Below the pieces are notes generated by a model that had not been told where the DNA came from, did no database searches, and was given only the letters and a program-made list of their open reading frames with translations. This document shows positions 29,301 to 44,484 of a stretch of DNA of 64,000 nucleotides, in pieces. The position numbers and the translations under genes were made by a program. Each line of letters starts with the position of its first letter. Positions within the stretch are counted from its first letter, which is position 1. The stretch covers positions 8,620 through 72,619 of the forward strand of contig JBFYSV010000202.1 in NCBI GenBank assembly GCA_041301185.1. Reading direction: 5' to 3'. The stretch is from Anaerolineae bacterium (GTDB lineage: Bacteria; Chloroflexota; Anaerolineae; Anaerolineales; UBA4823).

Positions 29301-29313
29301 GCGGACCTAACCT

Positions 29314-30096: not shown

Positions 30097-30131
30097 TGGG
30101 TATGTGAATCCGCAATTATTACGAGGCAGAT

Positions 30132-30920: not shown

Positions 30921-30958
30921 GTCATTCTTCGGCTTCGATTTTTCTAAAGTGTAATCAA

Positions 30959-30988
30959 CCCCGTCAATTGCTTACTGACGGGGTTTTC
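30959..30988 (+). terminator. Rho-independent terminator after jag
   Basis: CCCCGTCA (30959-30966), 9-nt loop, TGACGGGG (30976-30983), then TTTT. Confidence 0.65.
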
Positions 30989-31032
30989 CTATGCTTCGTC
31001 ATCCGGGTGGACTCTTCGTGTATAATTCAAGT

Positions 31033-31881
31033 ATGCGCCAGATCACTCCACTTGAGCCAGTTGATTATTTAGTCCTCGGGCACATCACCATCGATCAAAC
31101 GCCACAAGGACCGCGCCTCGGCGGTGGGGTTACATATTCCGCCCTTACAGCCCGAGCGTTAGGTCTGCGAGTTGGCATTGTAACTTCCTGGGGGCAAGAA
31201 ATTCCTCTTGGACTCCTGAGCGATATACCTATCATTAACTATCCTAGCGAAACCAGCACCACTTTCGAGAATATCTCCAAAGGCAATACTCGAGAGCAAT
31301 ATATCCACTCCACCGCATCCAGCCTTTACCTGAACACGATCCCTGACCCGTGGCGTAGCGCCCCAATCGTTCATCTGGCTCCTGTCGCTCAGGAAGTAGA
31401 TCCTTCATTAGTGCGTAATTTTCCCACGGCGTTGATTGCCGTTACCCCCCAGGGCTGGTTGCGCACCTGGGATAGAGCAAAGGTAGTTCAATCAACCGAA
31501 TGGCCTGAGGCATCCTTCGTGTTGCAAAGAGCAGGCGCAGCGGTTATCAGCATCAATGATGTTGATAACGACGAGACCCGAATTGAAGAAATGGCAACTG
31601 CCTGCCGCGTTTTAGCTGTAACCGAGGGTGCCAGGGGAACCCGCCTCTATTGGAATGGAGATATCCGCCGCTTTCGCCCGCCAGAGGTCAATGAGATCGA
31701 TAGCGTTGGCGCAGGTGATATTTTTGCGGCGGCATTTTTCGTTCGCCTATACACAACCCGCGATCCCTGGGAATCCGCCAGGTTTGCTACTCTTTTATCT
31801 GCATATTCCGTTACACGATCCGGCCTGGAGAGCATCCCCACCAGTGAGGAGATCCAGGAGTCCTTGGTTGAGGTATTTTAA
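31033..31881 (+). CDS. PfkB-family carbohydrate kinase
   Basis: The ORF is open from 30991, but that ATG abuts the terminator. The ATG at 31033 (MRQITPLEP) is more plausible. 'GGGVTYSA' and the C-terminal 'DSVGAGDIFAAAF' motif match the PfkB family. Confidence 0.7.
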   Translation: MRQITPLEPVDYLVLGHITIDQTPQGPRLGGGVTYSALTARALGLRVGIVTSWGQEIPLGLLSDIPIINYPSETSTTFENISKGNTREQYIHSTASSLYLNTIPDPWRSAPIVHLAPVAQEVDPSLVRNFPTALIAVTPQGWLRTWDRAKVVQSTEWPEASFVLQRAGAAVISINDVDNDETRIEEMATACRVLAVTEGARGTRLYWNGDIRRFRPPEVNEIDSVGAGDIFAAAFFVRLYTTRDPWESARFATLLSAYSVTRSGLESIPTSEEIQESLVEVF

Positions 31882-31884
31882 CGA

Positions 31885-32676
31885 ATGGGGTATGTCTATA
31901 CGCTAGTCAACCAAAAAGGCGGGGTGGGGAAGACCACCACCGCCATCAACCTGGGTGCGTACCTGGCGTATTATGGACAGCGGGTTCTGATCGTTGACCT
32001 CGATCCTCAGGCAAACGCCACCTCCAGCTTGAAAATCGACAAAAATACGGTTCGTGGCGGCACATACGAGGCGCTCATTCGATCCTCTACTCTCAGCCAT
32101 CATATTCTGCATAACCCGCGCTTGAAGCTATCCCTGCTCCCCTCCTCCCCTGCCCTGGCAGGTGCTGAAGTTGAATTGGTGAATGAACTTGCCAGGGAGA
32201 CCCGCTTGAAGAAAGCTCTCGATCCAATCCTGGATCGCTATGATTATATTCTTATCGATTGCCCGCCATCACTTGGCTTATTGACTCTGAATGGGATTGT
32301 TGCTGCCCTGGATGGCGTCATTATCCCGGTTCAGTGTGAATACCTGGCGCTCGAGGGATTGAGCCAGCTCACCCAAACCTTAAATCGCGTCCGGTCTGCA
32401 ATCTTTCCAGCTCTGAAGGTCTTTGGGGTGGTTTTAACCATGTATGACGGGAGGACAAATTTGGCGAATGATGTGGTTAGCGAGGTCCGGCGCTATTTCT
32501 CCGACCGGGTATTCCAAAGTCTGATTCCCCGCAGTGTTCGCCTGGCTGAAGCACCCTCCTATGGACAACCGATCACTGTATACGCGCCACAATCGAGCGG
32601 TGCAGAAGCCTATGCTGCCCTTGCCAGGGAAGTTCTGGAATTAAACGGTGTCCGTATCCCCACACTACAGGCTTAA
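31885..32676 (+). CDS. parA: Chromosome partitioning ATPase ParA/Soj
   Basis: 263-aa ORF with deviant Walker A 'NQKGGVGKTTT', 'DLDPQANAT' and 'ILIDCPPSLG'. Confidence 0.9.
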   Translation: MGYVYTLVNQKGGVGKTTTAINLGAYLAYYGQRVLIVDLDPQANATSSLKIDKNTVRGGTYEALIRSSTLSHHILHNPRLKLSLLPSSPALAGAEVELVNELARETRLKKALDPILDRYDYILIDCPPSLGLLTLNGIVAALDGVIIPVQCEYLALEGLSQLTQTLNRVRSAIFPALKVFGVVLTMYDGRTNLANDVVSEVRRYFSDRVFQSLIPRSVRLAEAPSYGQPITVYAPQSSGAEAYAALAREVLELNGVRIPTLQA

Positions 32677-32682
32677 CTTACT

Positions 32683-33540
32683 ATGACCCGAAAAACTGGA
32701 CTTGGGCGAGGCTTAGATGCTCTGATCCCCGGGGGCGAACCACCCTCCACGGGTGTTATTGAAATACCAGTAAATCTGATCACTCCAAACCCGAGACAGC
32801 CACGCAGTCGCTTCGACGCCGAGGAATTATCTGAGCTGGCTGACTCCATAAAAGAGCACGGTGTCCTTCAACCGATCATCGTATCTTTTGATGAACATGA
32901 CTCCCAATATGTGCTGATTGCCGGTGAAAGGCGCTGGATGGCAGCTCGACAAGCCGGTCTGGAATCGATTCCATCCATAGTGCGCGAAGTCAACGATCAG
33001 CAGCGCGTCGAGCTGGCTTTGATCGAGAACGTCCAACGTTCCGATCTCAGCCCCCTGGAAGCGGCCGAAGCATATCACCAGTTAAGTGAAGAGTTTGCAC
33101 TGTCTCATGATCAAATTTCTACAAGAGTAGGGAAAAGCCGCACCACGATTACCAACACTCTCCGGCTCTTAAAACTCCCAATAGATGTAAAAACCGCCCT
33201 GGCCGAAGACCGGATTAGCGAAGGGCATGCCAGGGCGTTGCTGTCCTTGAACAATCCACAGGCCCAGACCGCAGCCTTGCAGACCATCCTGGCAAAAGAC
33301 CTGACAGTGCGCCAGACGGAACAACTGGTACGAAAGCTGAGTGGAGAGAAGCCGGCACCGGTTCCCAAACCGACGGCTGCGCCAGAAATTTTATCCCTGG
33401 AAGAACAATTGCGCTCGCGGTTGGGTACAAAAGTGAAAGTCAACCCCCGCAAAAAGGGCGGCTCAATTGTTATTCATTATTTTTCAACCGAAGAGCTCAA
33501 TTCATTGCTGGACCTCCTCCTCGGAAATTCACAAGACTGA
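32683..33540 (+). CDS. parB: Chromosome partitioning protein ParB/Spo0J
   Basis: 285-aa ORF with 'GLGRGLDALI', 'NPRQPR', 'GVLQPIIV', 'LIAGERRWMAA' and HTH 'SHDQISTRVGKSRTTITNTLRLLKLP'. Confidence 0.9.
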   Translation: MTRKTGLGRGLDALIPGGEPPSTGVIEIPVNLITPNPRQPRSRFDAEELSELADSIKEHGVLQPIIVSFDEHDSQYVLIAGERRWMAARQAGLESIPSIVREVNDQQRVELALIENVQRSDLSPLEAAEAYHQLSEEFALSHDQISTRVGKSRTTITNTLRLLKLPIDVKTALAEDRISEGHARALLSLNNPQAQTAALQTILAKDLTVRQTEQLVRKLSGEKPAPVPKPTAAPEILSLEEQLRSRLGTKVKVNPRKKGGSIVIHYFSTEELNSLLDLLLGNSQD

Positions 33541-33557
33541 CCAACGCAGGACATTCT

Positions 33558-35141
33558 ATGCTGGCTATCACTAACGCTAACATCTATACTTTTGACGCGG
33601 CTCAACCCTGTGTCGAGGCTCTACTGATTGACCGGGGTAATGTAATCTTAGCAGGGAGCAATGACTTAATCACATCCGAGATAAAAGCAGGAGATACCAG
33701 ACAAGACCTGGATGGTCTCACAATAATCCCCGGGCTGACAGATGCCCATATCCATCTCGAACTGTACGCATTTTCTCTGCAAAAGGTGGATTGTGAAACG
33801 GATACGAAAGAAGAGTGCCTGCGGCGTGTGAAGGATCGCTCTCTGCGTGCTTCCCAGGGAGAATGGATCCTGGGGCATGGTTGGAACCAGAATAACTGGC
33901 ATGCGGGTTTTGGCACAAATGCAGACCTGGATGCCATCACCACCACCAACCCGATTTATCTCACCGCAAAATCACTACATGCCGGATGGGCAAACTCCCA
34001 GGCGTTACGACTGGCAAATATTACTCCCAACACACCAAACCCCCCAGGCGGTCAGATTGGCCGAGATGCTAAAGGTAATCCGAATGGTATCGTCTTTGAG
34101 AGTGCCATGGAGCTTGTCGCCCGGGTAATTCCGGAACCGAGCATAGAACAAACCGTTCAAGCAATCCAGGCTGCCCAGGTCATTTTGTGGCAAGCCGGTA
34201 TTACAGCAGTGCATGATTTTGATCGCCGGCGTTGTTTCCAGGCGTTACAAATCCTGCACAATCGCGGCGAGCTTGGAATCCGGGTTTTGAAGAGTATCCC
34301 GCTAGAAGACCTGCCCCACGTTATTGCGCTTGGCATCCGCAGCGGATTTGGCGATGACTTTCTTCGCATTGGCAGTCTGAAGGCATTTGCAGATGGCGCC
34401 CTTGGTCCCCACACCGCGGCGATGCTTCAACCTTATGCAGACGATCCCAGAAACCGGGGTATGTTGCTCCTTGACCGGGAAGAGTTAGCCGAACAAGGTC
34501 GCCAGGCGGTCGAGAATGGGATCAGCCTGGCAGTCCATGCAATTGGCGACCTTGCAAATCATGAAGTTCTGGATGCTTTCGAACAGATTCGTTTGTTCGA
34601 GCGCCAGCAAGGCCTTCCTGAATTACGCCATCGCATTGAGCATGTCCAGCTCATCCACCCACAGGATGTTAACCGCCTTGCGAGACTCAAGATTATTGCC
34701 TCCATGCAACCCATCCATGCAACCTCAGATATGCTAATGGCTGACCGCTTCTGGGGTGGACGTTCCAGGCTGGCCTACGCCTGGCGCAGCCAGCTCGATC
34801 ATGGAGCAATACTTGCTTTTGGATCCGATGCGCCGGTCGAATCTCCCAACCCGTTTTGGGGACTTCATGCAGCAGTCACCCGCCAGAGACCGGATGGGAC
34901 ACCATCTGCAGATGGATGGTATCCTGCCCAAAGACTGAGCCTGACCGAGGCAATCCAGGCGTATACCCGCGGCGCAGCCCATACCGCCGGTATGGAATCT
35001 CGCCTGGGCAGGCTGGCGCCCGGATACCTGGCAGACTTGATTGTCTTGCCATCCGATCCATTCAAGGTAGCACCCAATCAAATACGGGACTTGCGTCCCG
35101 TATCAACCATGGTATCTGGTAATTGGGTATTCCAAAGCTAA
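33558..35141 (+). CDS. Amidohydrolase-family (Amidohydro_3, YtcJ-like) metal-dependent hydrolase
   Basis: 527-aa ORF with 'PGLTDAHIHL', 'KAFADGALG', 'AVHAIGD', 'RIEHVQL' and 'GSDAPVE' metal-ligand motifs. Confidence 0.8.
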   Translation: MLAITNANIYTFDAAQPCVEALLIDRGNVILAGSNDLITSEIKAGDTRQDLDGLTIIPGLTDAHIHLELYAFSLQKVDCETDTKEECLRRVKDRSLRASQGEWILGHGWNQNNWHAGFGTNADLDAITTTNPIYLTAKSLHAGWANSQALRLANITPNTPNPPGGQIGRDAKGNPNGIVFESAMELVARVIPEPSIEQTVQAIQAAQVILWQAGITAVHDFDRRRCFQALQILHNRGELGIRVLKSIPLEDLPHVIALGIRSGFGDDFLRIGSLKAFADGALGPHTAAMLQPYADDPRNRGMLLLDREELAEQGRQAVENGISLAVHAIGDLANHEVLDAFEQIRLFERQQGLPELRHRIEHVQLIHPQDVNRLARLKIIASMQPIHATSDMLMADRFWGGRSRLAYAWRSQLDHGAILAFGSDAPVESPNPFWGLHAAVTRQRPDGTPSADGWYPAQRLSLTEAIQAYTRGAAHTAGMESRLGRLAPGYLADLIVLPSDPFKVAPNQIRDLRPVSTMVSGNWVFQS

Positions 35142-35162: not shown

Positions 35163-35852
35163 CTAATCCCCAAATCGATATCCAGTCCCCCACACTGTCT
35201 GGATATATCGCGGCTGGGATGGATCTAGCTCGACTTTTTTCCTCAGCCGGCGGACTGTTGCCTCGATCATATTCATATCCGCCCCGGTAGACATATAACC
35301 CCAAACATTATGCAACAGATCCTCTTTACTCAGTACGATCCCGGCATTTTGCATCAGGTATTTTAGTAATTGAAATTCCAACGGGGAGACAGGGATGCTT
35401 TTTTCTCGGAAGATCACCCGTTGAGCATCCAGGTCCAGGGTCAGGCTATCGAAAGCCAGTTTCCGTCGTGAGAATTGCTTGTATCCATTCGATCGGCGCA
35501 GCAAAGCCTGGACGCGGGCAATCATCTCCCGTGGGCGGATGGGTTTGACAACATAATCGTCAGCACCAGCCTCGATGCCTGCAACAACATCCTCTTCTCT
35601 GCCTCTACCAGTAACCAACAAGATCGGGAGCGAAGAGTTATCCCGCATGATTTTACACACCTGCAATCCATTCATCCTGGGCATTATTACATCCAGGATT
35701 GCAAGATCGATCGGAGTTGTCCGCAGCACTTCAAGCGCCTGCACACCGTTATCAGCAAAAACTACCTCAAACCCCGCGGCTTCAAGTGTTAATCCTACAC
35801 TCTGTTGGATATCGAGATCGTCATCAGCAAACAGGATAGTCGTTTTTATCAC
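35163..35852 (-). CDS. OmpR/PhoB-family response regulator (orphan, no adjacent kinase)
   Basis: 229-aa ORF with a GTG start and GGAG upstream. It has a REC domain ('ILFADDD','LAILDVIMP','KP') and a winged helix ('LSPLEFQLLKYLM','IQTVWGTGYRF'). Confidence 0.9.
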   Translation of the reverse strand: MIKTTILFADDDLDIQQSVGLTLEAAGFEVVFADNGVQALEVLRTTPIDLAILDVIMPRMNGLQVCKIMRDNSSLPILLVTGRGREEDVVAGIEAGADDYVVKPIRPREMIARVQALLRRSNGYKQFSRRKLAFDSLTLDLDAQRVIFREKSIPVSPLEFQLLKYLMQNAGIVLSKEDLLHNVWGYMSTGADMNMIEATVRRLRKKVELDPSQPRYIQTVWGTGYRFGD

Positions 35853-36089: not shown

Positions 36090-39044
36090 CTAATTCCCCC
36101 TGGTTTGCTGCTGGACCAGTTTTACGCCAACCAGATCGGCTTTTACAATCAAACGCTTTGTATAGAAACCGGTGTACATATCCCATTCCGAGCAAGTGAT
36201 CAAAGTGAGCTGCGGTTCCGAACTGGCGCCAATTACCGCCAGGTCGGTTGCCTCAACATCTACTTGCTCGCTTATCATATACTCATAGATATTTTTCTCG
36301 GTATAGATGAATACTGCATCTCCATATCTTAAATCAGCCAGGTAACGGAAAGGTCCATTGCTTCCATCGCGCAAAGTAACATGACCAGCCAATGCAGTAT
36401 TCCCACCCAGACCAGGCCAGGAGGTATCACCCATCCAGGCAATCTCCTGGTTCAGGCCGGCAATCAACCAGGTCAAACCATCGTAAGGAACATATTTCAC
36501 AACCGTGTCGAGGGCAAGAGCGGGGATGATAATCCGGTTCACCGGGCTAAGATCTGCCCCGGCTTCCTCAGTTGGGGCAAGCATGGTAGGTGTTGGAATC
36601 GGGAAATCCGGTAGTTTATTCAACTCAGAACCGGGTATCTGAGGAGTCATCCCAGGCCAGATTATTGTTTCAGGCTCGCTTTGAGACAGAAAACGCACTT
36701 TTTCTAACGGTGCCCTGACAGAGGACTTTTGAGCGAGGGGGTTGGTATCTTTAACAGTATATCTGTTCAAGATCCAACCAGAAGTACCAAATAGTACCGC
36801 AGCCACAGTCAATAAGCCGCCCATCTTAACCGCCCAACTCGTCCATTCGGATTGCTGGCCACGTAGTTGGTACGCATAGGCGAAAGCCACAATCGCCAGG
36901 ATCAGCAGCAGGCCAGCACTGACGAAGGCGACCAGGGATGGTTTAATTTGCGGCTTTGCCGCACCAATTTCGACCCCGCCGGTACCCGGCAGGGTTGATA
37001 CTGCCAGGATTTGGAAACTAACGGTATTTGAATTTCGCGTAAAAGTACTTCCACCAAATTTATATGTCAGCTTGGCTGTATTGGTTACTGTTGAATTTAC
37101 CGTTGCGCTGGTATTCACCCTGCCTACCACGGTAATCGTTACTTCTTCGTTACGGTTAAGAACGCCAAAGGTAACCGTCACCTTTCGAGTGGAGTTATTG
37201 ACCGTAGCTGTTCCCTTGGAGGTTTTCGCGCTGGATATATCCAGGAAAGTCGAGAAGGTATCTTCTACGATAATATCTGTCATGGGTGCCGTACCCGTGT
37301 TCGTTAACTTAATTGTGTACGTGGCGTTCTGATTGGTTCGCACCTGGTTAGGCGAGACAGATAACGTGATCCCAGGGGTAGGTGAGCCGGTGGAAGTTGT
37401 CGTATCGCTGGCGATATTATTACTGGTGTTTGCCTCTGGGGCGGTTGTGGTAACCCTGGCCTGATTGGTCAGGGCAGTCGCAGGACTTGGCAATGCATCC
37501 GCCACCCGCACTCGCAACTTAAATCGCAATGCTGCGTTCGGAGCGATACTGGATTCCAGTTTCCATACATAAGTCAGAGCAGCAGGGGTAGTAGGGGATA
37601 CATCTAATGTATGGGTGATAAAACTCAAAAAAGTGGGGAGCACATCGGTGATGACAACCCCGGTTGCCGGGATGGTACCGAAATTGCTGATCGTCATTGT
37701 ATATGTGATGGTCTGCCCCGGAGTAACGGTTGTCAGCCCATCAGTCTTTGTAAAGCGCAAATCGACCGTATCCAGCTCAAAATCCTGCCGGGTGGTCTGA
37801 CCCGGAATAAGGAACGGTGTCGCGGTTTTGGACGAATACCCGCTTCGGGATACACTGATCGACGCTGCTCCAGCAGAGATCGGATTGGTAATCGTACCCG
37901 TAAAGGTGTACCAGCCACTGGCTACTGTATTCATTACATAGGTGCGGTTGGCGCTATCGCGTAGCTCAACCCTTGCCCCGGAAAGAACATTATCTGTTAT
38001 CGCATCCGTCACCCTGCCGGTCACCTGTGTGCTTTGAACCGTAAAACTCACACTGGCAATATTATTTGTCGGATCATAATCCGGTATGGCAGACACCAGG
38101 CCTTCTGTGGTATTAACAATCGTCGTCCCCAGCGAGCCAGAGTTTACCCTCGCGACCAGGAGTAACGTTGCGTTTGCTCCATTAGCAAGATTACCTAATG
38201 TCCATCTTCCATCGGTATTCGTGTATGATCCCAGGCTCGCTTGCGCTTCCGTAAAGGTTAACTGAGTTGGCAGCACATCGGTCAGAATTACGCCTGTTGC
38301 GTCGCTGGGTCCTCGATTGACCACGGTTAATGTGTAAGTGACCACGCCTCCCTCGGATGGAGAGGCGGGAGCGACGGCTTTTGTAACCTGGAGATCGGCG
38401 CCAACCAGCGTTGTAGGGCTGTCAGACGAGTTATTACCTGGATCGCCATCGTTAACATTAGCTACAACGGCTGTATTGAAAATTTGCGTCGTAGTCGTTG
38501 GAGTAGGTACAACGCTTAAGCTAATCTCCGGCAGCATAGCACCCGGAGCTACACCTGCCGTGTTCGAGTACACACAGGTAAGGGTCTGAGCGAGCGTACA
38601 ATCCCAACCAGTTGTATCAACACTCAGGGGCGAGAGCACATCCGTCAGGATATCTGTTACCGTAATACTACCAGACACAACCCCAGTGCCAATATTCTTG
38701 ACATTGATGAAGTACTCGCCTGGCTCCAGAATAACGAAGTCAGCCGAATGTGTTTTGGTAATGATTAAGTCTGCAACAGCCTGAAGCGTTTCACCAGGCT
38801 GGCTAAGCATGTTTTGGGCGTTGCTTTTCTTCACCGAGGGAGCAAGGAGAGGTGTATCCAGGCGTGTCTCATCGGGGTTGGATGATGCCCAGCTCGTGGT
38901 GAGCGGTATAAATAACCCTCCAGCGATCACCGCAACCAGAATAAATACCAGGACGATCCAAGCTGACCGGGCATTTGAATTCTCTTCTTGGTTGTCGGCG
39001 GCAATCAAATCGCGATCCATACTTTCTCCGGAGGTGAGTATCAC
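36090..39044 (-). CDS. Fusion: signal-anchor + DUF11-repeat/CarboxypepD_reg surface region + LPGTG sorting signal + 2 TM helices + sortase catalytic domain
   Basis: Uninterrupted 984-codon ORF. The ATG at 39020 has a GGAG RBS and may be the true start. DUF11-type repeats begin at aa 91, 216, 427 and 559. LPGTG occupies aa 685-689 (nt 36978-36992), with hydrophobic helices at aa 703-725 and 737-759. The sortase motifs are 'LAGH' (His888), 'TLITC' (Cys951) and 'KRLIV' (Arg964). Confidence 0.8.
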   Translation of the reverse strand: MILTSGESMDRDLIAADNQEENSNARSAWIVLVFILVAVIAGGLFIPLTTSWASSNPDETRLDTPLLAPSVKKSNAQNMLSQPGETLQAVADLIITKTHSADFVILEPGEYFINVKNIGTGVVSGSITVTDILTDVLSPLSVDTTGWDCTLAQTLTCVYSNTAGVAPGAMLPEISLSVVPTPTTTTQIFNTAVVANVNDGDPGNNSSDSPTTLVGADLQVTKAVAPASPSEGGVVTYTLTVVNRGPSDATGVILTDVLPTQLTFTEAQASLGSYTNTDGRWTLGNLANGANATLLLVARVNSGSLGTTIVNTTEGLVSAIPDYDPTNNIASVSFTVQSTQVTGRVTDAITDNVLSGARVELRDSANRTYVMNTVASGWYTFTGTITNPISAGAASISVSRSGYSSKTATPFLIPGQTTRQDFELDTVDLRFTKTDGLTTVTPGQTITYTMTISNFGTIPATGVVITDVLPTFLSFITHTLDVSPTTPAALTYVWKLESSIAPNAALRFKLRVRVADALPSPATALTNQARVTTTAPEANTSNNIASDTTTSTGSPTPGITLSVSPNQVRTNQNATYTIKLTNTGTAPMTDIIVEDTFSTFLDISSAKTSKGTATVNNSTRKVTVTFGVLNRNEEVTITVVGRVNTSATVNSTVTNTAKLTYKFGGSTFTRNSNTVSFQILAVSTLPGTGGVEIGAAKPQIKPSLVAFVSAGLLLILAIVAFAYAYQLRGQQSEWTSWAVKMGGLLTVAAVLFGTSGWILNRYTVKDTNPLAQKSSVRAPLEKVRFLSQSEPETIIWPGMTPQIPGSELNKLPDFPIPTPTMLAPTEEAGADLSPVNRIIIPALALDTVVKYVPYDGLTWLIAGLNQEIAWMGDTSWPGLGGNTALAGHVTLRDGSNGPFRYLADLRYGDAVFIYTEKNIYEYMISEQVDVEATDLAVIGASSEPQLTLITCSEWDMYTGFYTKRLIVKADLVGVKLVQQQTRGN

Positions 39045-39105: not shown

Positions 39106-41007
39106 CTATCTCAATCGGCGGTTATCCCCTTCCCGAATTGTAATGCCACGTGAATCCAGGTATTCCAAGAATGCCAGCACATAACGCCGGCTGGTATTGT
39201 AGTAATCTCGTAGCTGGGCGGCGGTAATTGTGCCAGTTTCCTGAATAATCCGCATTACATCCACCAGCATCTTTTCATAGCCATCTCTACTAAAAACCAC
39301 CTCAGCAGAAACCTGTACCAGCTTGCCACTCTCAACCAATGCCTGGTACACATCCCCTCCTACTGCTGCCTGGCATTCTTTGACTGTTGGTGGTCCATAA
39401 GGATTCTCATTAAACTTGGTAAACAAATCGTCAGTCAAGCGCTGCTGCTGGTTGTTTAATCGAATCTCAAATCCTGTTTCACAGACAAGGGGGCCGACTT
39501 CCTGAATTGAACCGCTGGATGCCAGCTTACCCATCATCCCATTGAAAACGCGCGTTGAAACCTTCAACCGGCTTTTTAGCTCCTCGCGCGGCATGCCCTG
39601 ACGCAATGGATAAAGCTTGTGATATTGCTGAATTTCCCGAATTGCTTTTGTGGAGAGCTGGTTCCAGTACAGCTGGCTTGTCACCAGAGCATCCATTGCG
39701 GGTCTAGTGTTTTCTAACGTCTTCCCTTCAATTGAAACCAACAACCCATTTTCATATAACTCACCTATCAGCAGCTGAGCGTTAGTAGCTTCAAGATTTG
39801 ATCGTGAGACAACCTCTCTGAGCGGCGCGACGCCGAGTGCAGCCAAGGCTTGAAGAAATACGTCTGCTGGAGTGCCTTTTTCTAATGCTTCCAATCGCTC
39901 GACAGTCTGACGGGAAAATCGCTTATGCCTGCCTTTCGGATGGGGATCAAGTACTTCCCCTCCGCCGAGTGTTTCGCCAGGGGATGGTCGGCGAATAATG
40001 AACCGGTCACCGCGCATGGCGACAACCGGGTGGCTTACCTCCATCTGCACCCATCCATTCTCTCCGGGTTTCAACTCCTCTTTTCCAAGCAGGCGCAAGC
40101 GAGCCACCACCTCCGCAGATCCAATAAACAACTTAATGCTGGTATTGTGCCTGAGGACGGAGCTTGCACCCGTCAGAAGGCGCAATCGGGCGTCCAGCCT
40201 CCCGGTAGGCTGGTAATCCTTTGGATGGGCGATCACATCGCCGCGCATGATCTCATCAACATTGACACCGGAGATGTTGACCGCAGTCCGAGAACCAGGC
40301 ACAGCTATCTCTTCTTTTCGTTTGTGGGTTTGCAGGCCGCGGACCCTTCCCCGGATTGTCTGAGGTAACACAACAAGCTCGTCGCCTGCGTGCAAAGCTC
40401 CATCGCTTAGCGTACCCGTCACAACCGTCCCAAATCCCGGGATGGTAAAAACACGATCCACCGGCAGACGCGGGCGTCCGTAATCCACTCTTGGGGGGCG
40501 TTCTGCCAGGCACTTAACGATTTCGCTTAATAAATCGTCAATCCCTATCCGCTTACGGCCAGAGACACGCACAATTGGGGCATTTTCCATAACGGTGCCG
40601 ATTAATTGCTGGCGCACATCTTCCTCGATCAGATCCAGCCACTCGGCATCCTGAACCATGTCAATTTTGGTCAGCGCAACGACACCTCCCTGAATCTGGA
40701 GCAGGTCCAAGATCGCCAGGTGTTCACGGGTTTGAGGCATCACCCCTTCGTCTGCCGCAATAACGAACAGTGCTGCATCAATGCCTCCAATACCTGAGAG
40801 CATGTTTTCGATAAAGTCACGGTGCCCCGGCACATCGATAATACCGATTTCCTCCCCGTCTGGAAGGGTCATCCACGCAAAGCCCAGGTCGATTGTCATT
40901 TCCCGCTCGCGTTCTTCTTTTAAGCGATCGGGGTGATAGCCGGTAAGCGCCTCAACCAGGGTTGATTTACCGTGGTCGACGTGCCCGGCAGTCCCAATTA
41001 CCCGCAT
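39106..41007 (-). CDS. selB: Selenocysteine-specific translation elongation factor SelB
   Basis: The ATG at 41007 has a GGAGGA RBS; the track ORF begins 15 nt upstream at a TTG. N-terminus 'MRVIGTAGHVDHGKSTL', plus 'DVPGH' and 'TKID' GTPase motifs. The ~630-aa length and C-terminal winged-helix-like extension are typical of bacterial SelB. Confidence 0.85.
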   Translation of the reverse strand: MRVIGTAGHVDHGKSTLVEALTGYHPDRLKEEREREMTIDLGFAWMTLPDGEEIGIIDVPGHRDFIENMLSGIGGIDAALFVIAADEGVMPQTREHLAILDLLQIQGGVVALTKIDMVQDAEWLDLIEEDVRQQLIGTVMENAPIVRVSGRKRIGIDDLLSEIVKCLAERPPRVDYGRPRLPVDRVFTIPGFGTVVTGTLSDGALHAGDELVVLPQTIRGRVRGLQTHKRKEEIAVPGSRTAVNISGVNVDEIMRGDVIAHPKDYQPTGRLDARLRLLTGASSVLRHNTSIKLFIGSAEVVARLRLLGKEELKPGENGWVQMEVSHPVVAMRGDRFIIRRPSPGETLGGGEVLDPHPKGRHKRFSRQTVERLEALEKGTPADVFLQALAALGVAPLREVVSRSNLEATNAQLLIGELYENGLLVSIEGKTLENTRPAMDALVTSQLYWNQLSTKAIREIQQYHKLYPLRQGMPREELKSRLKVSTRVFNGMMGKLASSGSIQEVGPLVCETGFEIRLNNQQQRLTDDLFTKFNENPYGPPTVKECQAAVGGDVYQALVESGKLVQVSAEVVFSRDGYEKMLVDVMRIIQETGTITAAQLRDYYNTSRRYVLAFLEYLDSRGITIREGDNRRLR

Positions 41008-41066
41008 CCAATTCCTCCACAAAAGCTACCTATACTATGCTTATGTTGTTGAGGGTACTCCACATC

Positions 41067-42245
41067 TCACCGCGAAGTGCCTGAAGAGCGCTCGTAGTTC
41101 GAAACCCACTCGTGCACAACTGTCAGCATCGATTGCAACCGCTTGCCGGTTAGCTCGTTTATTTGGTGCAGCGTGTCTTGAATTTCCTGCATGGCGTCCT
41201 CCAGATGGGTTACCCTTTCAGCCAACTTATCATATTGCCGGGATGACTCGCCCCGCTGCTCTTCATGGGTAAGCGTGTAGTTCGTCCAACGTTTTTGGTC
41301 GTCAGCTTTGAATGTAACCCATTCCTGACGGAAACGTTCCTCTGCCAGGCGTTGGATCTCAGCCATTTCATTAATACGACGGTCCACCTTTTGGGTCAAC
41401 TCATCCAGTGCCTGTTGAGAGCGTTTGACAGCCCGGTGGGTGGTATCCAGGGTCTGTAAATTCAGCTCGATGTCCGCAGTTTGGGTATCAATTGTTTCGA
41501 ATCTCGCCTGCCATTCCTTCCAGACTCGATCGCGCTCTACTTGCAAAAGTGCCTGCTCTTCCAGGAATTTAACCTGGGCTTCGCGCCGCTCAACCTCCAC
41601 CATCGATAGCTCATTCAATCGGGTTTCGATTTTTCTCAGGCTTGTCGATGTAAGCTCCATCCTACCGCGCTGATCGTCGACATGCTTACGCAAGGCTGAA
41701 ATCTCTCCCTGTATATCTGTCAATCGCTTTGCATCTTGCCTTCGCCCATCATCCAGTAATTTCATCGTCCGGGTATATTCTTCATCACTCCGTCGGATCG
41801 TATCTATCCGTACGCGAATCTCGTCAATTGACCGGGACAGACGGATATCTTCATCGACCCGCGACTGTATCGTGCGCTTTAGCTCTGGAATTGGTGCCAG
41901 GTCTTTACGAAGCTCAACGATGTTTGCTTCCAGCGCTCGCTGCTCAACGCGCCGGATTTTTTCCTGCTCCTGCTCGCGTTGCTTGATCTCTTTGTCCATC
42001 TGTTCAAGATGGTGTTTTGTTTCCACGCGAAATTGAAGCAGATTCTCATCAAAATGATCCATCCGGGCTAATAAGGCGCTCACCCGGGTGATTTCGCTAT
42101 CCAAGTTCTTAATCTGCTTGCTGATGCCTGGCAGGTTCCCCTCCAGAGATATCATGCGTTCCTCTATGGCTGCCAGAAGATTTTTGTCCTTGCGGTGCTC
42201 GTCATCCAGCCAATCTACCCGCTTTAGGATTTGTTCTATCTCCAT
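41067..42245 (-). CDS. Coiled-coil protein of unknown function
   Basis: About 392 aa from the ATG at 42245 (CAGGAG RBS); the ORF is open to 42263. The sequence is E/R/K/L/Q-rich and heptad-like throughout. No TM segment and no enzymatic motif recognised. Confidence 0.5.
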   Translation of the reverse strand: MEIEQILKRVDWLDDEHRKDKNLLAAIEERMISLEGNLPGISKQIKNLDSEITRVSALLARMDHFDENLLQFRVETKHHLEQMDKEIKQREQEQEKIRRVEQRALEANIVELRKDLAPIPELKRTIQSRVDEDIRLSRSIDEIRVRIDTIRRSDEEYTRTMKLLDDGRRQDAKRLTDIQGEISALRKHVDDQRGRMELTSTSLRKIETRLNELSMVEVERREAQVKFLEEQALLQVERDRVWKEWQARFETIDTQTADIELNLQTLDTTHRAVKRSQQALDELTQKVDRRINEMAEIQRLAEERFRQEWVTFKADDQKRWTNYTLTHEEQRGESSRQYDKLAERVTHLEDAMQEIQDTLHQINELTGKRLQSMLTVVHEWVSNYERSSGTSR

Positions 42246-42301
42246 ATTTGCGCTCCTGAGCATTCGCGTTTCACGAATGTAATATTATTTGATAAACTTC
42301 G

Positions 42302-42319
42302 CAGTTATTGAAATAACTG
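42302..42319. promoter_or_regulatory. Perfect 8-2-8 inverted repeat upstream of the coiled-coil gene (candidate operator)
   Basis: CAGTTATT GA AATAACTG lies about 57 nt upstream of the ATG at 42245. A second hairpin, CATTCG-n7-CGAATG (42261-42279), lies just upstream of the RBS. Confidence 0.35.
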
Positions 42320-42415
42320 GAGTGTCAGAACAGCTGTAACCAATCCCTCCACGCAAATCATCTCTCAAACCGGCTCACCAAAGGATTATAGCATGCTGTA
42401 TACCTGCCCTTACTT

Positions 42416-43867
42416 TCAAGGAATTGATTGGATAAATGATTCCGACATCCGAGCCAGTGCAGGTGTGAACCATTGTGGAAACATACCAATCGCTATAATG
42501 GCTATGCTTCCTGCTAATAAAAACAATATCTCGCTGCGGGTTTCACGGATTTCCCACGGACTTTCATTTTCCCCCATCACCAGCACAGCCATTGTTCTCA
42601 GACCACCCATGATCAAACCGGCATAACCCAATAAAACCAGCCCGCCCGAGATCACTGAATTTTGGGCAACTTCTTGCCAGATGGCTAACCGAACGGGAAA
42701 GCCAATCAGGATTGGGAATCCGGCAAGAGAGAATTGCGCCAGCAACAAACCAATCGAGGCGATTGGTGCCTGCCGTGCCAGACCTTTTACATCACGAAAC
42801 AGCAACCCCTGCGAGGTCACGGCATCTTGAGTTTCATTCGTACGATTGAGGATTCTTATCATCACAACCAGGGATAGTGCCCATACGCCCAGGCTCAATG
42901 CGCGTGGAAGGAGGATTGCGTAGAACGCGCCGAAGAGCTCCCCACTTCCAGCTGGATACAAGCCGGCCCAGACTGCTAATAGTGATAATCCTATCTCTAC
43001 CATTACGGCATAACCGAGCATACGCCCCAAATGACGTTGAAAAGCAGCGATTACCCCGCCCAGTACAATCATAATGACACCGGCGATTTCAAGGATCGAA
43101 AACAAACCTGTTGCGTCACGCATCCAGGCATAACGCTCCAGGAATCCCAGACCAAACAATGATATTGCAACAGGCAACTCATACAGGAGGTATGCCACAG
43201 AGTATGGATGACTCTCTTCAGATATCATTGGTATCCAGGTATGAAAGGGGAAAACCCCCAATAATAACCAAAAACCCAATCCCAATAACACAAACGAGAA
43301 AAAGATAAGGCTCATATCGGCAGTATTGGTATCCACACCGGTGAGCAGCCAGCCTGTGAATAACACAAATGGAAAACCCAGAGTCTGAAAGGTCAGATAC
43401 CTGACCACGCCCCGCCCGCGTTGAAACCCCGGAGATGATAAAAGTGGAATACTGACCAGCACAACAATCTCAATGATCAGGGCTGCATATAAGAAAGGTT
43501 CGACAGCCAGCGCAGCAGTCAATAATCCCGCAATTGCCAATCCCAGCGGTACGAACAGCAAGCTGGTACGCGCCACCCAGGCTCCGGTAAACCAGAATGC
43601 CAGACCAAGGTAAATGAGCAATAAGGCAGACCGGTCATTATTATCGAGGACAAGTCGCCTGCCTAATATGGATAGGCTATCCTGGATCGAAAAGGATATG
43701 CTCGCGAAGTTGATGCTTTCACCGATCGGGATTCGCCAGGCCAATATCGCCAACAATATCGCCACAAACGTGCCAATGATGAATACAATGTTCTTGCGCT
43801 TATAAAAGATCAACAAAACGCCGGAGACAATTCCCGGGAAGATAATCCAGAGAATAGCTGTGCTCAT
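42416..43867 (-). CDS. Divergent NuoN/MrpD-like (proton-antiporter-like) polytopic membrane protein
   Basis: About 483 aa from the ATG at 43867, which overlaps the upstream stop (ATGA). The track ORF to 44122 is an out-of-context extension. Many TM helices. 'FPFHTWIPMISEESHPYSVAYL' resembles the family motif PFHxWxPDxxxGxPTPVSA. Confidence 0.5.
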   Translation of the reverse strand: MSTAILWIIFPGIVSGVLLIFYKRKNIVFIIGTFVAILLAILAWRIPIGESINFASISFSIQDSLSILGRRLVLDNNDRSALLLIYLGLAFWFTGAWVARTSLLFVPLGLAIAGLLTAALAVEPFLYAALIIEIVVLVSIPLLSSPGFQRGRGVVRYLTFQTLGFPFVLFTGWLLTGVDTNTADMSLIFFSFVLLGLGFWLLLGVFPFHTWIPMISEESHPYSVAYLLYELPVAISLFGLGFLERYAWMRDATGLFSILEIAGVIMIVLGGVIAAFQRHLGRMLGYAVMVEIGLSLLAVWAGLYPAGSGELFGAFYAILLPRALSLGVWALSLVVMIRILNRTNETQDAVTSQGLLFRDVKGLARQAPIASIGLLLAQFSLAGFPILIGFPVRLAIWQEVAQNSVISGGLVLLGYAGLIMGGLRTMAVLVMGENESPWEIRETRSEILFLLAGSIAIIAIGMFPQWFTPALARMSESFIQSIP

Positions 43868-44484
43868 TCTATTCTTTCCATGGTTGGCGCAAGTACCAGG
43901 TACGCCCCAACCAGCCCTAATCCCAGGGTAACAACTGCCAGAAGACCCTGAACCAGGGCAGATACTTCGATCCCTGCATAAGCAATCTCGAATCCAGCGA
44001 TGACTGTGAGCAAGCCAACCACCACCCGAAACGGCTCCGAGGTTAACCCCAGGTGGAGCAGTCCCAATCCAATCAATATCGTCGAGCCTAAGATTTGTTC
44101 GCTTGATAGACCTGGCAACCATTGAACAATAACGCGGGATCCAGACACAATCACCAGTCCGACTAAACTGGCGGCAAACAACCGGAACAATCTCCCGGAT
44201 AGCTCTGTCTGCGAGTTTAATAGCGGTGGATGTCTGGTCTGATCCTGATCCTTTGCCTCAAGGCTAGATAGGGCAATGAATAAAATAACACCAGCCATCA
44301 AACCTGCAATCAATTTTGTCAGCGCCATCTGGAACGGCCATGAAATGCCTACCAGGATAAATATGCCAGCATACTGGATCATCAATAAAGAGATAATCCA
44401 CCGCCAGGCGTGGGAGATTAATATCCCAGCAGCAGTGACTGCTACCAGCACAACAGATGGAAGAGCTAACATATCAAGACCCAA
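43864..44484 (-). CDS. Small polytopic membrane protein (possibly NuoK/J- or MrpC-like), unknown function
   Basis: 206-aa ORF with ~6 predicted hydrophobic helices and a central polar loop. An intramembrane Glu sits in 'IAGFEIAYAG'. Assignment rests on context and hydrophobicity only. Confidence 0.4.
   Translation of the reverse strand: MGLDMLALPSVVLVAVTAAGILISHAWRWIISLLMIQYAGIFILVGISWPFQMALTKLIAGLMAGVILFIALSSLEAKDQDQTRHPPLLNSQTELSGRLFRLFAASLVGLVIVSGSRVIVQWLPGLSSEQILGSTILIGLGLLHLGLTSEPFRVVVGLLTVIAGFEIAYAGIEVSALVQGLLAVVTLGLGLVGAYLVLAPTMERIE

What the first reader, a model, noticed from the sequence alone, without database searches (positions are those of the whole stretch)
36090..39044. Sortase catalytic domain fused in one ORF to a DUF11-repeat surface protein carrying its own LPGTG sorting signal
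Seen in sequence: one uninterrupted 2955-nt ORF. The order of elements (ORF numbering) is as follows. A hydrophobic signal-anchor spans aa ~28-47. Four DUF11-type 'conserved repeat' units follow (ADLIITKT.. aa 91, ADLQVTKA.. aa 216, VDLRFTKT.. aa 427, ITLSVSPN.. aa 559), plus a CarboxypepD_reg-like segment (aa ~341-424). LPGTG sits at aa 685-689 (nt 36978-36992). Next come a helix at aa 703-725, a short loop QLRGQQSEW, a second helix at aa 737-759, and a Pro-rich linker. The sortase fold spans aa ~835-975 with His888 (LAGH), Cys951 (TLITC) and Arg964. Established knowledge: sortases are Cys transpeptidases that cleave LPXTG in proteins carrying LPXTG plus a hydrophobic helix plus a basic tail. 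Enzyme and substrate are normally separate polypeptides. Inference: two helices after the motif would return the sortase domain to the outer face, beside its own sorting signal. The protein could then process or anchor itself in cis, or process neighbouring copies in trans, as a self-contained surface-display or polymerisation module. From memory I cannot say whether this architecture has been described.
Basis: partly seen in the sequence, partly recalled or inferred. Interest (0 to 1): 0.8.

Follow-up and report, generated by a model that had tools for sequence, protein, structure and literature searches.

The report
Sortase fused to its own substrate

Summary
ORF 36090-39044 (-), 984 aa, reads in order: export signal, four DUF11/CLIPPER domains, LPGTG (aa 685-689), TM helix, basic loop, TM helix, Pro-rich linker, sortase domain (His888/Cys951/Arg964).

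It is not an assembly artefact. 67 of 67 informative species-level genome loci and 63 of 63 further cluster representatives have the same LPxTG-TM-TM-sortase order. L, P, T and G are invariant, x and the flanks vary. The gene is single-copy and syntenic next to parAB.

Three relatives at the same locus are genuinely split. The upstream gene ends in a textbook sorting signal (LPGTG, helix, basic tail, stop). It overlaps (ATGA, read in two of the three) a normally anchored sortase gene. The split falls exactly in the cytoplasmic loop of the fused form. This identifies the two halves as substrate and cognate enzyme.

A confident AlphaFold hairpin and the charge pattern (loop +2.75, flanks about -0.3) put motif and active site on the same outer face.

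Self-processing, cis versus trans, and the acceptor are inferred, not shown. Nine literature searches found only engineered analogues. Verdict: new variant of a known kind; interest about 0.68.

The parts
36090..39044 (-). Whole fused gene, 984 aa plus stop: export signal, CLIPPER/DUF11 ectodomain, LPGTG, TM hairpin, linker, sortase
   Evidence: ORF list. Pfam DUF11 x4 and Sortase. AGGAAGG upstream of the GTG start.
38901..38963 (-). N-terminal export signal or anchor: hydrophobic core aa 28-48 (AWIVLVFILVAVIAGGLFIPL), preceded by Arg26 and followed by an SWA/SS AxA-like site
   Evidence: Hydropathy and coordinates. 53 of 54 complete orthologous ORFs have a basic n-region plus a hydrophobic h-region, often with an AxA-like site. 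Cleavage by signal peptidase is inferred.
36993..38900 (-). Ectodomain (cargo), aa 49-684. Four DUF11/CLIPPER Ig-like repeats begin at aa 91, 216, 427 and 559. A weak CarboxypepD_reg-like segment lies at aa 341-424.
   Evidence: Pfam DUF11, E=1.3e-64, 4 stretches. DUF7619, DUF7507 and DUF7927 are also above their cutoffs. CarbopepD_reg_2 is sub-threshold. TIGR01451 and TIGR04226 are above cutoff. Repeat starts verified.
36978..36992 (-). LPGTG sorting motif, aa 685-689; predicted scissile bond Thr688/Gly689
   Evidence: L, P, T and G are invariant in 42/42 aligned homologues. An LPxTG-type motif is present in 67/67 loci and 63/63 representatives. Cleavage is inferred.
36870..36935 (-). TM1, aa 704-725: stop-transfer helix of the sorting signal
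   Evidence: Hydropathy. AlphaFold helix at model residues 33-59 with pLDDT about 95. It corresponds to the terminal helix of the split orthologues' substrates.
36819..36869 (-). Short cytoplasmic loop, aa 726-742 (QLRGQQSEWTSWAVKMG). It is equivalent to the basic tail of a sorting signal joined to the basic N-terminus of a sortase.
   Evidence: Over 69 loci the mean net charge is +2.75, against -0.33 and -0.28 for the flanks. The split orthologues are interrupted exactly here.
36768..36818 (-). TM2, aa 743-759: membrane anchor of the sortase moiety
   Evidence: AlphaFold helix at model residues 65-97, pLDDT above 90, forming a hairpin with TM1. It corresponds to the N-terminal anchor of the split sortases.
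36540..36767 (-). Pro-rich flexible linker, aa 760-835
   Evidence: AlphaFold pLDDT below 50 for model residues 103-133. 12 Pro in aa 756-834.
36588..36614 (-). Conserved linker motif LPDFPIPTP, aa 811-819; function unknown
   Evidence: LP[DNSE][FY]x[IV]PxP is present in 77 of 80 loci, in both fused and split forms. L811, P812, P817 and P819 are invariant or nearly invariant.
36120..36539 (-). Sortase catalytic domain, aa 836-975 (beta1 = NRIIIPALALD)
   Evidence: Pfam PF04203 at aa 840-972. PDB sequence hits to SrtA and SrtD. AlphaFold beta-barrel. Foldseek E=8e-12, TM-score 0.80 to 5hu4.
36381..36383 (-). Catalytic His888 (LAGH)
   Evidence: Invariant in 42/42; aligned to the SrtA His.
36192..36194 (-). 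Catalytic Cys951 (TLITC)
   Evidence: Invariant in 42/42; aligned to the TLITC motif of B. anthracis SrtA.
36153..36155 (-). Catalytic Arg964
   Evidence: Invariant in 42/42.

Best explanation
This is a natural one-polypeptide sortase system. A Sec-exported DUF11/CLIPPER stalk protein carries a canonical tripartite sorting signal (LPGTG, hydrophobic helix, basic segment). That signal runs on, through a short basic cytoplasmic loop, into the membrane anchor, linker and catalytic domain of its own dedicated sortase.

Proposed sequence of events:
1. The N-terminal signal exports the ectodomain.
2. TM1 stops transfer and the basic loop stays in the cytoplasm.
3. TM2 re-exports the linker and the sortase domain, so LPGTG and Cys951 both face outwards.
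4. LPGTG sits about 14 residues above the membrane. The sortase sits on a flexible tether of about 75 residues.
5. Cys951 attacks the Thr688-Gly689 bond of its own chain or a neighbouring copy and forms a thioacyl intermediate.
6. An envelope amine, most likely a peptidoglycan precursor, resolves the intermediate. The stalk protein becomes covalently displayed.
7. A sortase stub of about 296 aa with two TM helices stays in the membrane and may process further copies in trans.

Shown here: the architecture, its conservation, the topology, and the enzyme-substrate relationship (from the split orthologues).

Inferred: the cleavage itself, cis versus trans, the acceptor, and the fate of the stub.
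For: - Domains and motifs are present.
- LPxTG and the His/Cys/Arg triad are invariant across 42 homologues at 37-59% identity, while x and the flanks vary.
- The same order is found in 67/67 informative loci from different species-level Chloroflexota genomes, with protein sizes of 525-1246 aa. It is also found in 63/63 further representatives.
- The gene is single-copy per genome and syntenic. 54/54 loci of at least 12 kb have ParB, the amidohydrolase or SelB within 6 kb.
- Rosetta-stone evidence comes from L086 (seen on 24+ independent contigs), L089 and L068. Their DUF11 gene ends ...LPGTG-helix-RRWSAAREP*, RRLVSR* or RRWSSSPQP*. In L086 and L089 it overlaps, at ATGA, a sortase gene that begins with a basic N-terminus plus a membrane anchor (the L068 junction DNA was not read).
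- Topology: a confident AlphaFold TM hairpin and positive-inside statistics.
- 53/54 orthologues have an N-terminal export signal.
- The sortase fold is confirmed.
- No other classical LPxTG substrate occurs in 1.03 Mb of window plus loci, apart from the three split substrates.
- Engineered SrtA-LPETG fusions self-cleave at the correct bond (PMC2901362).
Against: - No biochemical or proteomic evidence of cleavage exists.
- AlphaFold leaves the LPGTG segment at pLDDT below 50 and does not dock it in the active site.
- Whole genomes could not be scanned. Other sortases or other LPxTG substrates elsewhere in these genomes cannot be excluded.
- The acceptor is unknown. The Anaerolineae envelope is poorly characterised.
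- In the window protein the loop is only weakly basic (net about +1). The strong charge bias is a property of the family as a whole.
Confidence: 0.7

Rival explanations
1. Polymerising (pilus-like) module. The fused sortase joins Thr688 of one ectodomain to a Lys or to the N-terminus of another copy. This would build covalent fibres of CLIPPER domains rather than, or before, wall anchoring.
For: - The membrane-proximal domain hits TIGR04226, an isopeptide-forming fimbrial domain (37.2 bits against a cutoff of 30).
- DUF11/CLIPPER domains are stalk modules of fibrillar adhesins (PMC12617251).
- The conserved Asp-aromatic linker motif LPD[FY]P, upstream of beta1, loosely recalls the DP[FWY] lid of pilin-specific class C sortases. 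This rests on my own knowledge.
Against: - No conserved Lys (none at 50% or more) occurs in the conserved domain upstream of LPxTG.
- The class C model scores lowest among the classes A-F (24 bits against a cutoff of 160).
- There is a single substrate and a single sortase, with no accessory pilin genes in the conserved neighbourhood.
Confidence: 0.12
2. The fused sortase does not act on its own LPGTG. Either a separate housekeeping sortase cleaves the motif and the fused domain serves other substrates, or the fusion merely co-expresses two partners.
For: Whole genomes were not searched, so other sortases or substrates cannot be excluded. The split orthologues show that the pair works as separate polypeptides.
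Against: - In the split forms the two genes sit next to each other at the same locus and, in L086 and L089, overlap at ATGA. This is the pattern of dedicated enzyme-target pairs (PMC3237569).
- Motif and catalytic triad are both invariant together.
- No other classical LPxTG substrate was found in 1.03 Mb of neighbourhoods.
- The 80 loci listed each come from a different genome assembly, by accession prefix, consistent with one copy per genome.
Confidence: 0.08
3. The protein is never cleaved. It would be a permanent three-helix membrane protein in which LPGTG acts as a tethered pseudo-substrate or regulatory element of the sortase domain, or is simply a relic.
For: AlphaFold gives no docking information either way. 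The stoichiometric accumulation of sortase stubs looks wasteful.
Against: - A relic would not keep L, P, T and G invariant across more than 130 diverged sequences while x varies.
- The split orthologues end with a textbook sorting signal, which only makes sense if that signal is cleaved.
Confidence: 0.07
4. Assembly or frameshift artefact that joins two ordinary genes.
For: Some close relatives are annotated as separate genes, for example P0001 (340 aa) and P0033 (282 aa).
Against: - Those assemblies fragment nearly every neighbouring gene.
- tblastn and stop-to-stop frames show the module to be contiguous.
- The fusion recurs in 67 independent genome assemblies and 63 further cluster representatives, 130 in all.
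Confidence: 0.01

Closest known systems
Canonical sortase / LPXTG cell-wall sorting (SrtA-type housekeeping systems of monoderm bacteria)
   Same: - Sortase fold with the His-Cys-Arg triad and the TLxTC motif.
- A substrate with an N-terminal signal and LPxTG, followed by a hydrophobic helix and then basic residues.
- The enzyme is anchored by an N-terminal helix and its catalytic domain faces outwards.
   Different: - Enzyme and substrate are one polypeptide. The substrate's basic tail and the enzyme's basic N-terminus are merged into one cytoplasmic loop.
- The relationship appears to be one-to-one rather than one enzyme for many substrates.
- The organisms are Chloroflexota (mostly labelled Anaerolineae), not Bacillota or Actinomycetota.
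- None of the NCBIfam class A-F models reaches its cutoff.
Dedicated sorting-enzyme/single-target pairs (Haft's 'dedicated systems'), for example the class GN 'marine' sortase TIGR03784 with an adjacent LPXTG target, or rhombosortase with a single adjacent GlyGly-CTERM protein (PMC3237569)
   Same: One enzyme is paired with one target encoded next to it. The split orthologues here (L086, L089, L068) are exactly such cassettes.
   Different: - Here adjacency has gone all the way to translational fusion in most lineages.
- The TIGR03784 model scores only 22 bits against a cutoff of 158, so this is a different sortase lineage with a different cargo (DUF11/CLIPPER rather than vWFA-type).
Engineered self-cleaving sortase fusions (Mao 2004; BISOP, PMC2901362)
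   Same: A sortase and an LPXTG site lie in one chain. The chain cleaves itself at the Thr-Gly bond.
   Different: - Those constructs are artificial and soluble, and the enzyme is N-terminal to the motif.
- They are used for hydrolytic release of a tag-free protein.
- The natural protein has the motif first, then a membrane hairpin, then the enzyme. It presumably performs transpeptidation at the cell surface.
Class C (pilin-specific) sortases and sortase-assembled pili
   Same: - The cargo is built of Ig-like domains of the isopeptide type.
- Enzyme and cargo are encoded together.
- A conserved Asp-aromatic motif lies N-terminal to beta1.
   Different: - No pilin-motif Lys is conserved.
- There are no accessory pilins.
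- The class C model scores far below its cutoff.
- The motif is LPD[FY]P, not DP[FWY].

Membership tests
Sortase superfamily (Pfam PF04203; cysteine transpeptidases) | Sequence match to the family model above its curated threshold | tested here: met
   PF04203 scores 78.5 bits against a cutoff of 26.6, at aa 840-972. TIGR01076 scores 39.5 against 39.35, only just above.
Sortase superfamily (Pfam PF04203; cysteine transpeptidases) | Eight-stranded beta-barrel sortase fold | tested here: met
   The AlphaFold model has a confident beta-barrel. Foldseek against the PDB gives 5hu4 at E=8e-12 and TM-score 0.80, plus more than 100 sortase chains.
Sortase superfamily (Pfam PF04203; cysteine transpeptidases) | His-Cys-Arg catalytic triad with the TLxTC motif | tested here: met
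   His888, Cys951 (TLITC) and Arg964 are invariant in 42/42 homologues.
Sortase superfamily (Pfam PF04203; cysteine transpeptidases) | Transpeptidase activity on an LPXTG-type signal | not testable with these tools
   This needs an enzyme assay or mass spectrometry.
Named sortase classes A-F and GN (NCBIfam NF033745-8, NF058671, TIGR03784) | Score above the class-specific curated cutoff | tested here: not met
   The best is class D at 44.4 bits against a cutoff of 165. Class E scores 43.3/160, class F 36.9/166, class C 24.2/160 and class GN 22/158. Foldseek places classes A, D, E and C about equally close.
LPXTG cell-wall sorting signal (sortase substrate) | N-terminal secretion signal | tested here: met
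   Basic n-region plus a hydrophobic core at aa 28-48 and an SWA/SS site. 53/54 orthologues have the same. No dedicated signal-peptide predictor was available.
LPXTG cell-wall sorting signal (sortase substrate) | LPXTG motif followed by a hydrophobic helix and then basic residues | tested here: met
   LPGTG at aa 685-689, helix at aa 704-725, then a loop containing R and K. The family-wide loop net charge is +2.75.
LPXTG cell-wall sorting signal (sortase substrate) | The signal lies at the extreme C-terminus of the protein | tested here: not met
   In the window protein 242 residues follow the loop (aa 743-984). The feature is met in the split orthologues L086, L089 and L068.
DUF11 / CLIPPER (PF01345) surface-protein repeats | Match above the Pfam threshold; tandem Ig-like repeats in an exported protein | tested here: met
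   216 bits against a cutoff of 24.6, in 4 stretches. TIGR01451 scores 108 bits.
DUF11 / CLIPPER (PF01345) surface-protein repeats | Lys-Asp-Asn intramolecular isopeptide triad (PMC12617251) | tested here: inconclusive
   By eye, repeats 1-3 keep the xTK Lys, the TD Asp and an N(T/Q)A Asn. Repeat 4 (ITLSVSPN) lacks the Lys. No structural test was done.
Dedicated enzyme/single-target sorting system (PMC3237569) | Enzyme and target are encoded adjacently | tested here: met
   They are fused in 67/67 informative loci. In 3 loci they are separate neighbouring genes, with an ATGA overlap read in L086 and L089.
Dedicated enzyme/single-target sorting system (PMC3237569) | Only one target (and one such enzyme) in the genome | not testable with these tools
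   Only the 64-kb window and loci of about +/-6 kb could be scanned. No other substrate was found in 1.03 Mb. The 80 loci listed each come from a different assembly, by accession prefix.
Class C pilin-polymerising sortase system | Conserved pilin-motif Lys nucleophile in the substrate, and a DP[FWY] lid | tested here: not met
   No column upstream of LPxTG has 50% or more Lys. The linker motif is LPD[FY]P, not DP[FWY]. Whether it acts as a lid was not tested.

The most novel reading that the evidence does not exclude
The fused proteins would be obligate self-sorters. Each molecule would use its own tethered sortase once, in cis, to anchor its own ectodomain. Secretion and covalent display would then be stoichiometrically coupled at the site of export, with no free housekeeping sortase. 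The leftover two-helix stub and the conserved LPD[FY]PIPTP and cytoplasmic-loop motifs would serve a second role, such as gating or acceptor recruitment. This would be the first natural single-turnover, intramolecular sortase. It would also be a ready-made, genetically portable self-display module.
Probability: 0.3. Interest if true: 0.82.

Novelty: new variant of a known kind. Interest (0 to 1): 0.68.

Why it matters
Sortases are textbook trans-acting enzymes: one enzyme, many separate substrates. They are also major tools for protein engineering. A family in which enzyme and substrate are one chain matters for several reasons.
- It gives an unambiguous cognate enzyme-motif pair for a sortase lineage that none of the NCBIfam class A-F/GN models tested captures.
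- It gives a natural system for asking whether sortases can act intramolecularly, and how the sorting-signal helix and the sortase anchor sit relative to each other in the membrane.
- It shows that covalent surface display by sortases is a conserved, vertically inherited trait in Chloroflexota labelled mostly as Anaerolineae. Their envelope is poorly understood.
- It offers a compact natural template for self-anchoring or self-ligating display modules.
- It carries a practical warning. Surveys that look for LPXTG only in the last ~50 residues (as in PMC12617251) and gene callers working on noisy long-read assemblies both miss or mis-split this family.

Tried and rejected
(1) 'Sortase-only' homologues as evidence for two ordinary genes. 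These were P0001, P0033, P0064 and P0070. I rejected this reading. Their assemblies fragment most neighbouring genes. tblastn and stop-to-stop frames show a contiguous or collinear module.

(2) AlphaFold docking of LPGTG into the active site. This was uninformative. The motif has pLDDT below 50. The tool returns no coordinates, so no distance to Cys951 could be measured.

(3) The afdb50 fold search, intended to find UniProt or cultured-organism members, was not available.

(4) The exhaustive profile search to size the family. The profile included the membrane-proximal DUF11 domain, so giant multi-DUF11 proteins dominate. The counts (4380 at E<=1e-30) are therefore not a family size. Only the 73 full-module hits among the top 150 are usable.

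(5) Class assignment. No NCBIfam class model passes. PDB sequence and fold searches do not favour one class.

(6) Literature. Nine searches found no description of a natural fusion, only engineered ones. They combined sortase with Chloroflexi/Chloroflexota, Anaerolineae, DUF11, fusion, self-cleavage, autoprocessing and domain architecture. The library lacks most subscription journals, so absence there is not proof.

(7) The adjacent OmpR-type response regulator as part of the system. Rejected, because it is present in only 11 of 54 loci.

(8) Fusion-versus-fission polarity. The NJ tree, midpoint-rooted and without support values, places the split forms at two positions nested among fused forms. 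This suggests secondary fission but is not robust.


Full report
**1. Observation**

The ORF is real. It spans 36090..39044 on the minus strand, is 984 aa long and starts with GTG. An AGGAAGG ribosome-binding-like element lies just upstream.

Pfam finds four DUF11 stretches (E=1.3e-64) and a Sortase domain at aa 840-972 (E=4.7e-22, 78.5 bits against a cutoff of 26.6). NCBIfam adds the DUF11-type repeat TIGR01451, a pilin-like isopeptide domain TIGR04226 at aa 568-662, and the generic sortase model TIGR01076, which only just passes. The 'CarboxypepD_reg-like' segment is sub-threshold (E=0.014).

- hydrophobic N-terminal segment at aa 28-48
- LPGTG at aa 685-689 (nt 36978-36992)
- TM1 at aa 704-725
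- loop at aa 726-742
- TM2 at aa 743-759
- His888, Cys951 and Arg964

This LPGTG is the only LPxTG followed by a hydrophobic stretch in the whole 64-kb window.

**2. Not an artefact: a conserved family**

I searched with aa 670-984 and got 316 homologues. Many carry DUF11 and Sortase in one protein. Public sources name them only 'sortase' or 'LPXTG-site transpeptidase family protein'.

Nearly every hit long enough has LPxTG about 200 residues upstream of the catalytic His, followed by two hydrophobic helices.

An alignment of 42 of them (37-59% identity to the window protein) gives these results:
- L, P, T and G of the motif are invariant in 42/42.
- The x position is Gly in only 32/42, and flanking columns reach at most 32/42, most well below.
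- His888, Cys951 and Arg964 are invariant.

A scan of one genome per species (GTDB) found 94 relatives. All 80 listed are Chloroflexota MAGs, most labelled Anaerolineae or Anaerolineales, and one labelled Ca. Aquidulcis. In 67 of the 67 loci whose ORF is long enough, an LPxTG-type motif precedes two helices and the sortase. The motif counts are:
- LPGTG, 49
- LPPTG, 11
- LPSTG, 2
- LPATG, LPETG, LPNTG, LACTG and IPATG, 1 each

Protein sizes run from 525 to 1246 aa, because the N-terminal cargo varies.

An exhaustive profile search added 63 further 50%-identity representatives that carry this sortase signature. All 63 have LPxTG at the expected distance.

The 80 loci listed each come from a different genome assembly, judged by accession prefix, consistent with one copy per genome. 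The gene is also syntenic. All 54 loci of at least 12 kb have ParB, the amidohydrolase or SelB within 6 kb, and 50 of the 54 have ParB (gene tables).

**3. Apparent counter-examples**

The closest relative, P0001 (82% identity), and several others (P0033, P0064, P0070) are called as short 'sortase-only' genes. Their assemblies fragment almost every neighbouring gene, including SelB, ParA, ParB and the amidohydrolase. tblastn and stop-to-stop frames show the whole module to be contiguous or collinear across frame changes. These cases are sequencing or annotation noise.

**4. The decisive comparative result**

Three relatives at the same syntenic locus are genuinely split.

In L086, which is seen on 24 or more independent short-read contigs:
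- A 763-aa protein with four DUF11 stretches ends ...VLPGTGSSPPARRPPSQLVYLVLVAGLLLPMLLLGRRWSAAREP*.
- It overlaps, at ATGA, a 258-aa sortase gene that begins MRTSPHRSACLALACLILALLLAAC...

In L089:
- The upstream gene ends ...LPGTGGAPFEQPVKQPWAKIRLALSLCGLGILAVGSGFLLRRLVSR*.
- It overlaps, at ATGA, MSARYRILGLLAFLLGLFSGMAC...

L068 resembles L086, but its junction DNA was not read.

So the upstream gene is a textbook sortase substrate: motif, helix, basic tail, stop. The downstream gene is a textbook membrane-anchored sortase. The break lies exactly where the fused proteins have their cytoplasmic loop.

By Rosetta-stone logic, the fused protein is a cognate substrate-enzyme pair joined tail to head.

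In a quick neighbour-joining tree of catalytic domains, the split forms sit at two places nested among fused forms. This suggests secondary fission. The tree has no support values or outgroup, so the polarity is tentative.

In 1.03 Mb of window plus loci, these three are the only classical C-terminal LPxTG signals.

**5. Topology**

AlphaFold2, run on the 42-sequence alignment, gives the following:
- two long helices forming a confident hairpin (model residues 33-59 and 65-97, pLDDT about 95)
- a disordered linker
- a confident beta-barrel

Across 69 loci, the loop between the helices has on average 3.2 Lys/Arg and a net charge of +2.75. The 15 residues before TM1 average -0.33 and the 15 after TM2 average -0.28. 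An N-terminal export signal is present in 53 of 54 complete orthologues.

With an exported N-terminal ectodomain and an even number of following helices, LPGTG and the catalytic domain are both extracytoplasmic. LPGTG lies 14 residues before TM1. The catalytic domain hangs on a Pro-rich tether of about 75 residues after TM2. Reach is therefore not limiting; this last point is inference.

AlphaFold did not dock LPGTG into the active site (pLDDT below 50). That neither supports nor refutes cis processing.

**6. What kind of sortase**

The fold matches solved sortases: Foldseek gives 5hu4 at E=8e-12 and TM-score 0.80. Classes A, D, E and C are about equally close. PDB sequence matches are weak; the best is B. 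anthracis SrtA at E=7e-9. None of the NCBIfam class models comes near its cutoff; the best scores 44 bits against 165.

It is therefore a member of the sortase superfamily, but it cannot be filed in a named class.

A family-specific motif, LP[DNSE][FY]x[IV]PxP (LPDFPIPTP, aa 811-819), lies about 20 residues before beta1 in 77 of 80 loci, including the split forms. Its role is unknown.

**7. Mechanism proposed**

1. Sec-dependent export of the CLIPPER stalk.
2. Stop-transfer at TM1.
3. Re-export of the linker and sortase through TM2.
4. Attack of Cys951 on Thr688-Gly689, in cis or between neighbouring copies.
5. Transfer of the ectodomain to an envelope amine, most likely a peptidoglycan precursor.
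6. A 296-aa sortase stub with two TM helices remains in the membrane.

What is shown: architecture, conservation, topology and the enzyme-substrate relationship. What is inferred: catalysis, cis versus trans, the acceptor and the fate of the stub.

The split forms must work in trans, which shows that fusion is not mechanistically required. Engineered SrtA-LPETG fusions cleave themselves at the right bond, which shows that a fused arrangement is chemically workable (PMC2901362).

Rivals considered:
- Pilus-like polymerisation. In favour are the pilin-like TIGR04226 hit and the Ig-like stalk cargo. Against are the lack of any conserved Lys and the low class C score.
- Processing by another sortase. 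This cannot be excluded without whole genomes.
- An uncleaved pseudo-substrate. This is hard to square with the invariant motif and the split forms.
- An artefact. Refuted.

**8. Comparison with the known, and novelty**

The closest concepts are these:
- Canonical sortase/LPXTG sorting.
- Haft's 'dedicated' one-enzyme/one-target cassettes, in which enzyme and target are neighbours (PMC3237569).
- Engineered self-cleaving sortase tags.

The new element is a natural translational fusion of substrate and sortase through a membrane hairpin. It is conserved and vertically inherited across a large group of Chloroflexota, in a sortase lineage that none of the NCBIfam class A-F/GN models tested captures.

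Nine full-text searches found no description of such a protein. A recent survey of DUF11/CLIPPER proteins looked for sortase motifs only in the last 50 residues, so it would have missed these (PMC12617251). The held library lacks most subscription journals, so prior description cannot be excluded.

I rate it a new variant of a known kind, with interest about 0.68. A specialist would find a natural enzyme-substrate fusion of a sortase, together with natural split controls, notable and directly testable. Conceptually, though, it extends known sortase biology rather than overturning it.

Noticed in passing
window 36588-36614 (-), aa 811-819; also L086 and L089 sortase genes: The motif LP[DNSE][FY]x[IV]PxP (LPDFPIPTP here) lies about 20 residues upstream of sortase beta1. 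It is present in 77 of 80 loci, in both fused and split forms. AlphaFold pLDDT there is about 64-72. Its function is unknown; it could be lid-like, a pseudo-substrate or a docking element.
   Followed up: partly
window 36819-36869 (-), aa 726-742: The cytoplasmic loop between the two helices carries a conserved pattern in many homologues (R.RQPEW.GW..KMG). This is more conservation than a simple connector would need.
   Followed up: no
L086 7001-7075; L089 1327-1395: The split-form sortases begin with lipoprotein-like signals (…LLAAC, …SGMAC). In the split state the enzyme may therefore be lipid-anchored rather than helix-anchored.
   Followed up: no
L001, L003, L004, L005 and several MFD-derived loci (L009, L024, L034, L038, L041, L065, L078): These long-read metagenome assemblies carry many frameshift errors that split this gene and its neighbours (SelB, ParA, ParB, amidohydrolase). 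As a result, public protein sets contain many spurious 'sortase-only' fragments of this family.
   Followed up: yes
window 28224-35141 and 39106-44122; loci L002, L005, L086, L089: The gene sits in a conserved neighbourhood. On one side are amidohydrolase, ParB, ParA, PfkB, Jag, YidC, YidD and rpmH (origin-proximal genes). On the other are SelB, a coiled-coil protein and a proton-antiporter/NADH dehydrogenase subunit. The window's own genes beyond ParB, amidohydrolase, SelB and the coiled-coil ORF were not annotated; the list comes from the related loci.
   Followed up: partly
window 35163-35852 (-): An OmpR-type response regulator lies directly downstream of the fused gene. It occurs in only 11 of the 54 large loci, so it is probably not part of the system.
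   Followed up: yes
L001 5457-6110: In the closest relative, a DDE transposase gene is inserted between SelB and the fused gene.
   Followed up: no
L039 (LACTG) and L057 (IPATG): Two species have non-canonical motif variants at the conserved position. LAxTG is the class E-type signal (from my own knowledge).
   Followed up: no
window 37347-37370 (-), aa 559-566: The membrane-proximal fourth DUF11 repeat begins ITLSVSPN and lacks the Lys that starts repeats 1-3 (xDLxxTK). It probably has no intramolecular isopeptide bond. This domain is the part of the ectodomain that is conserved across the family.
   Followed up: partly
P0111 (270 aa) and P0173 (1178 aa): P0111 joins a MutS N-terminal segment to this sortase domain on a 1-kb contig, which is probably a chimeric assembly. 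P0173 has about 190 residues after the sortase domain.
   Followed up: no
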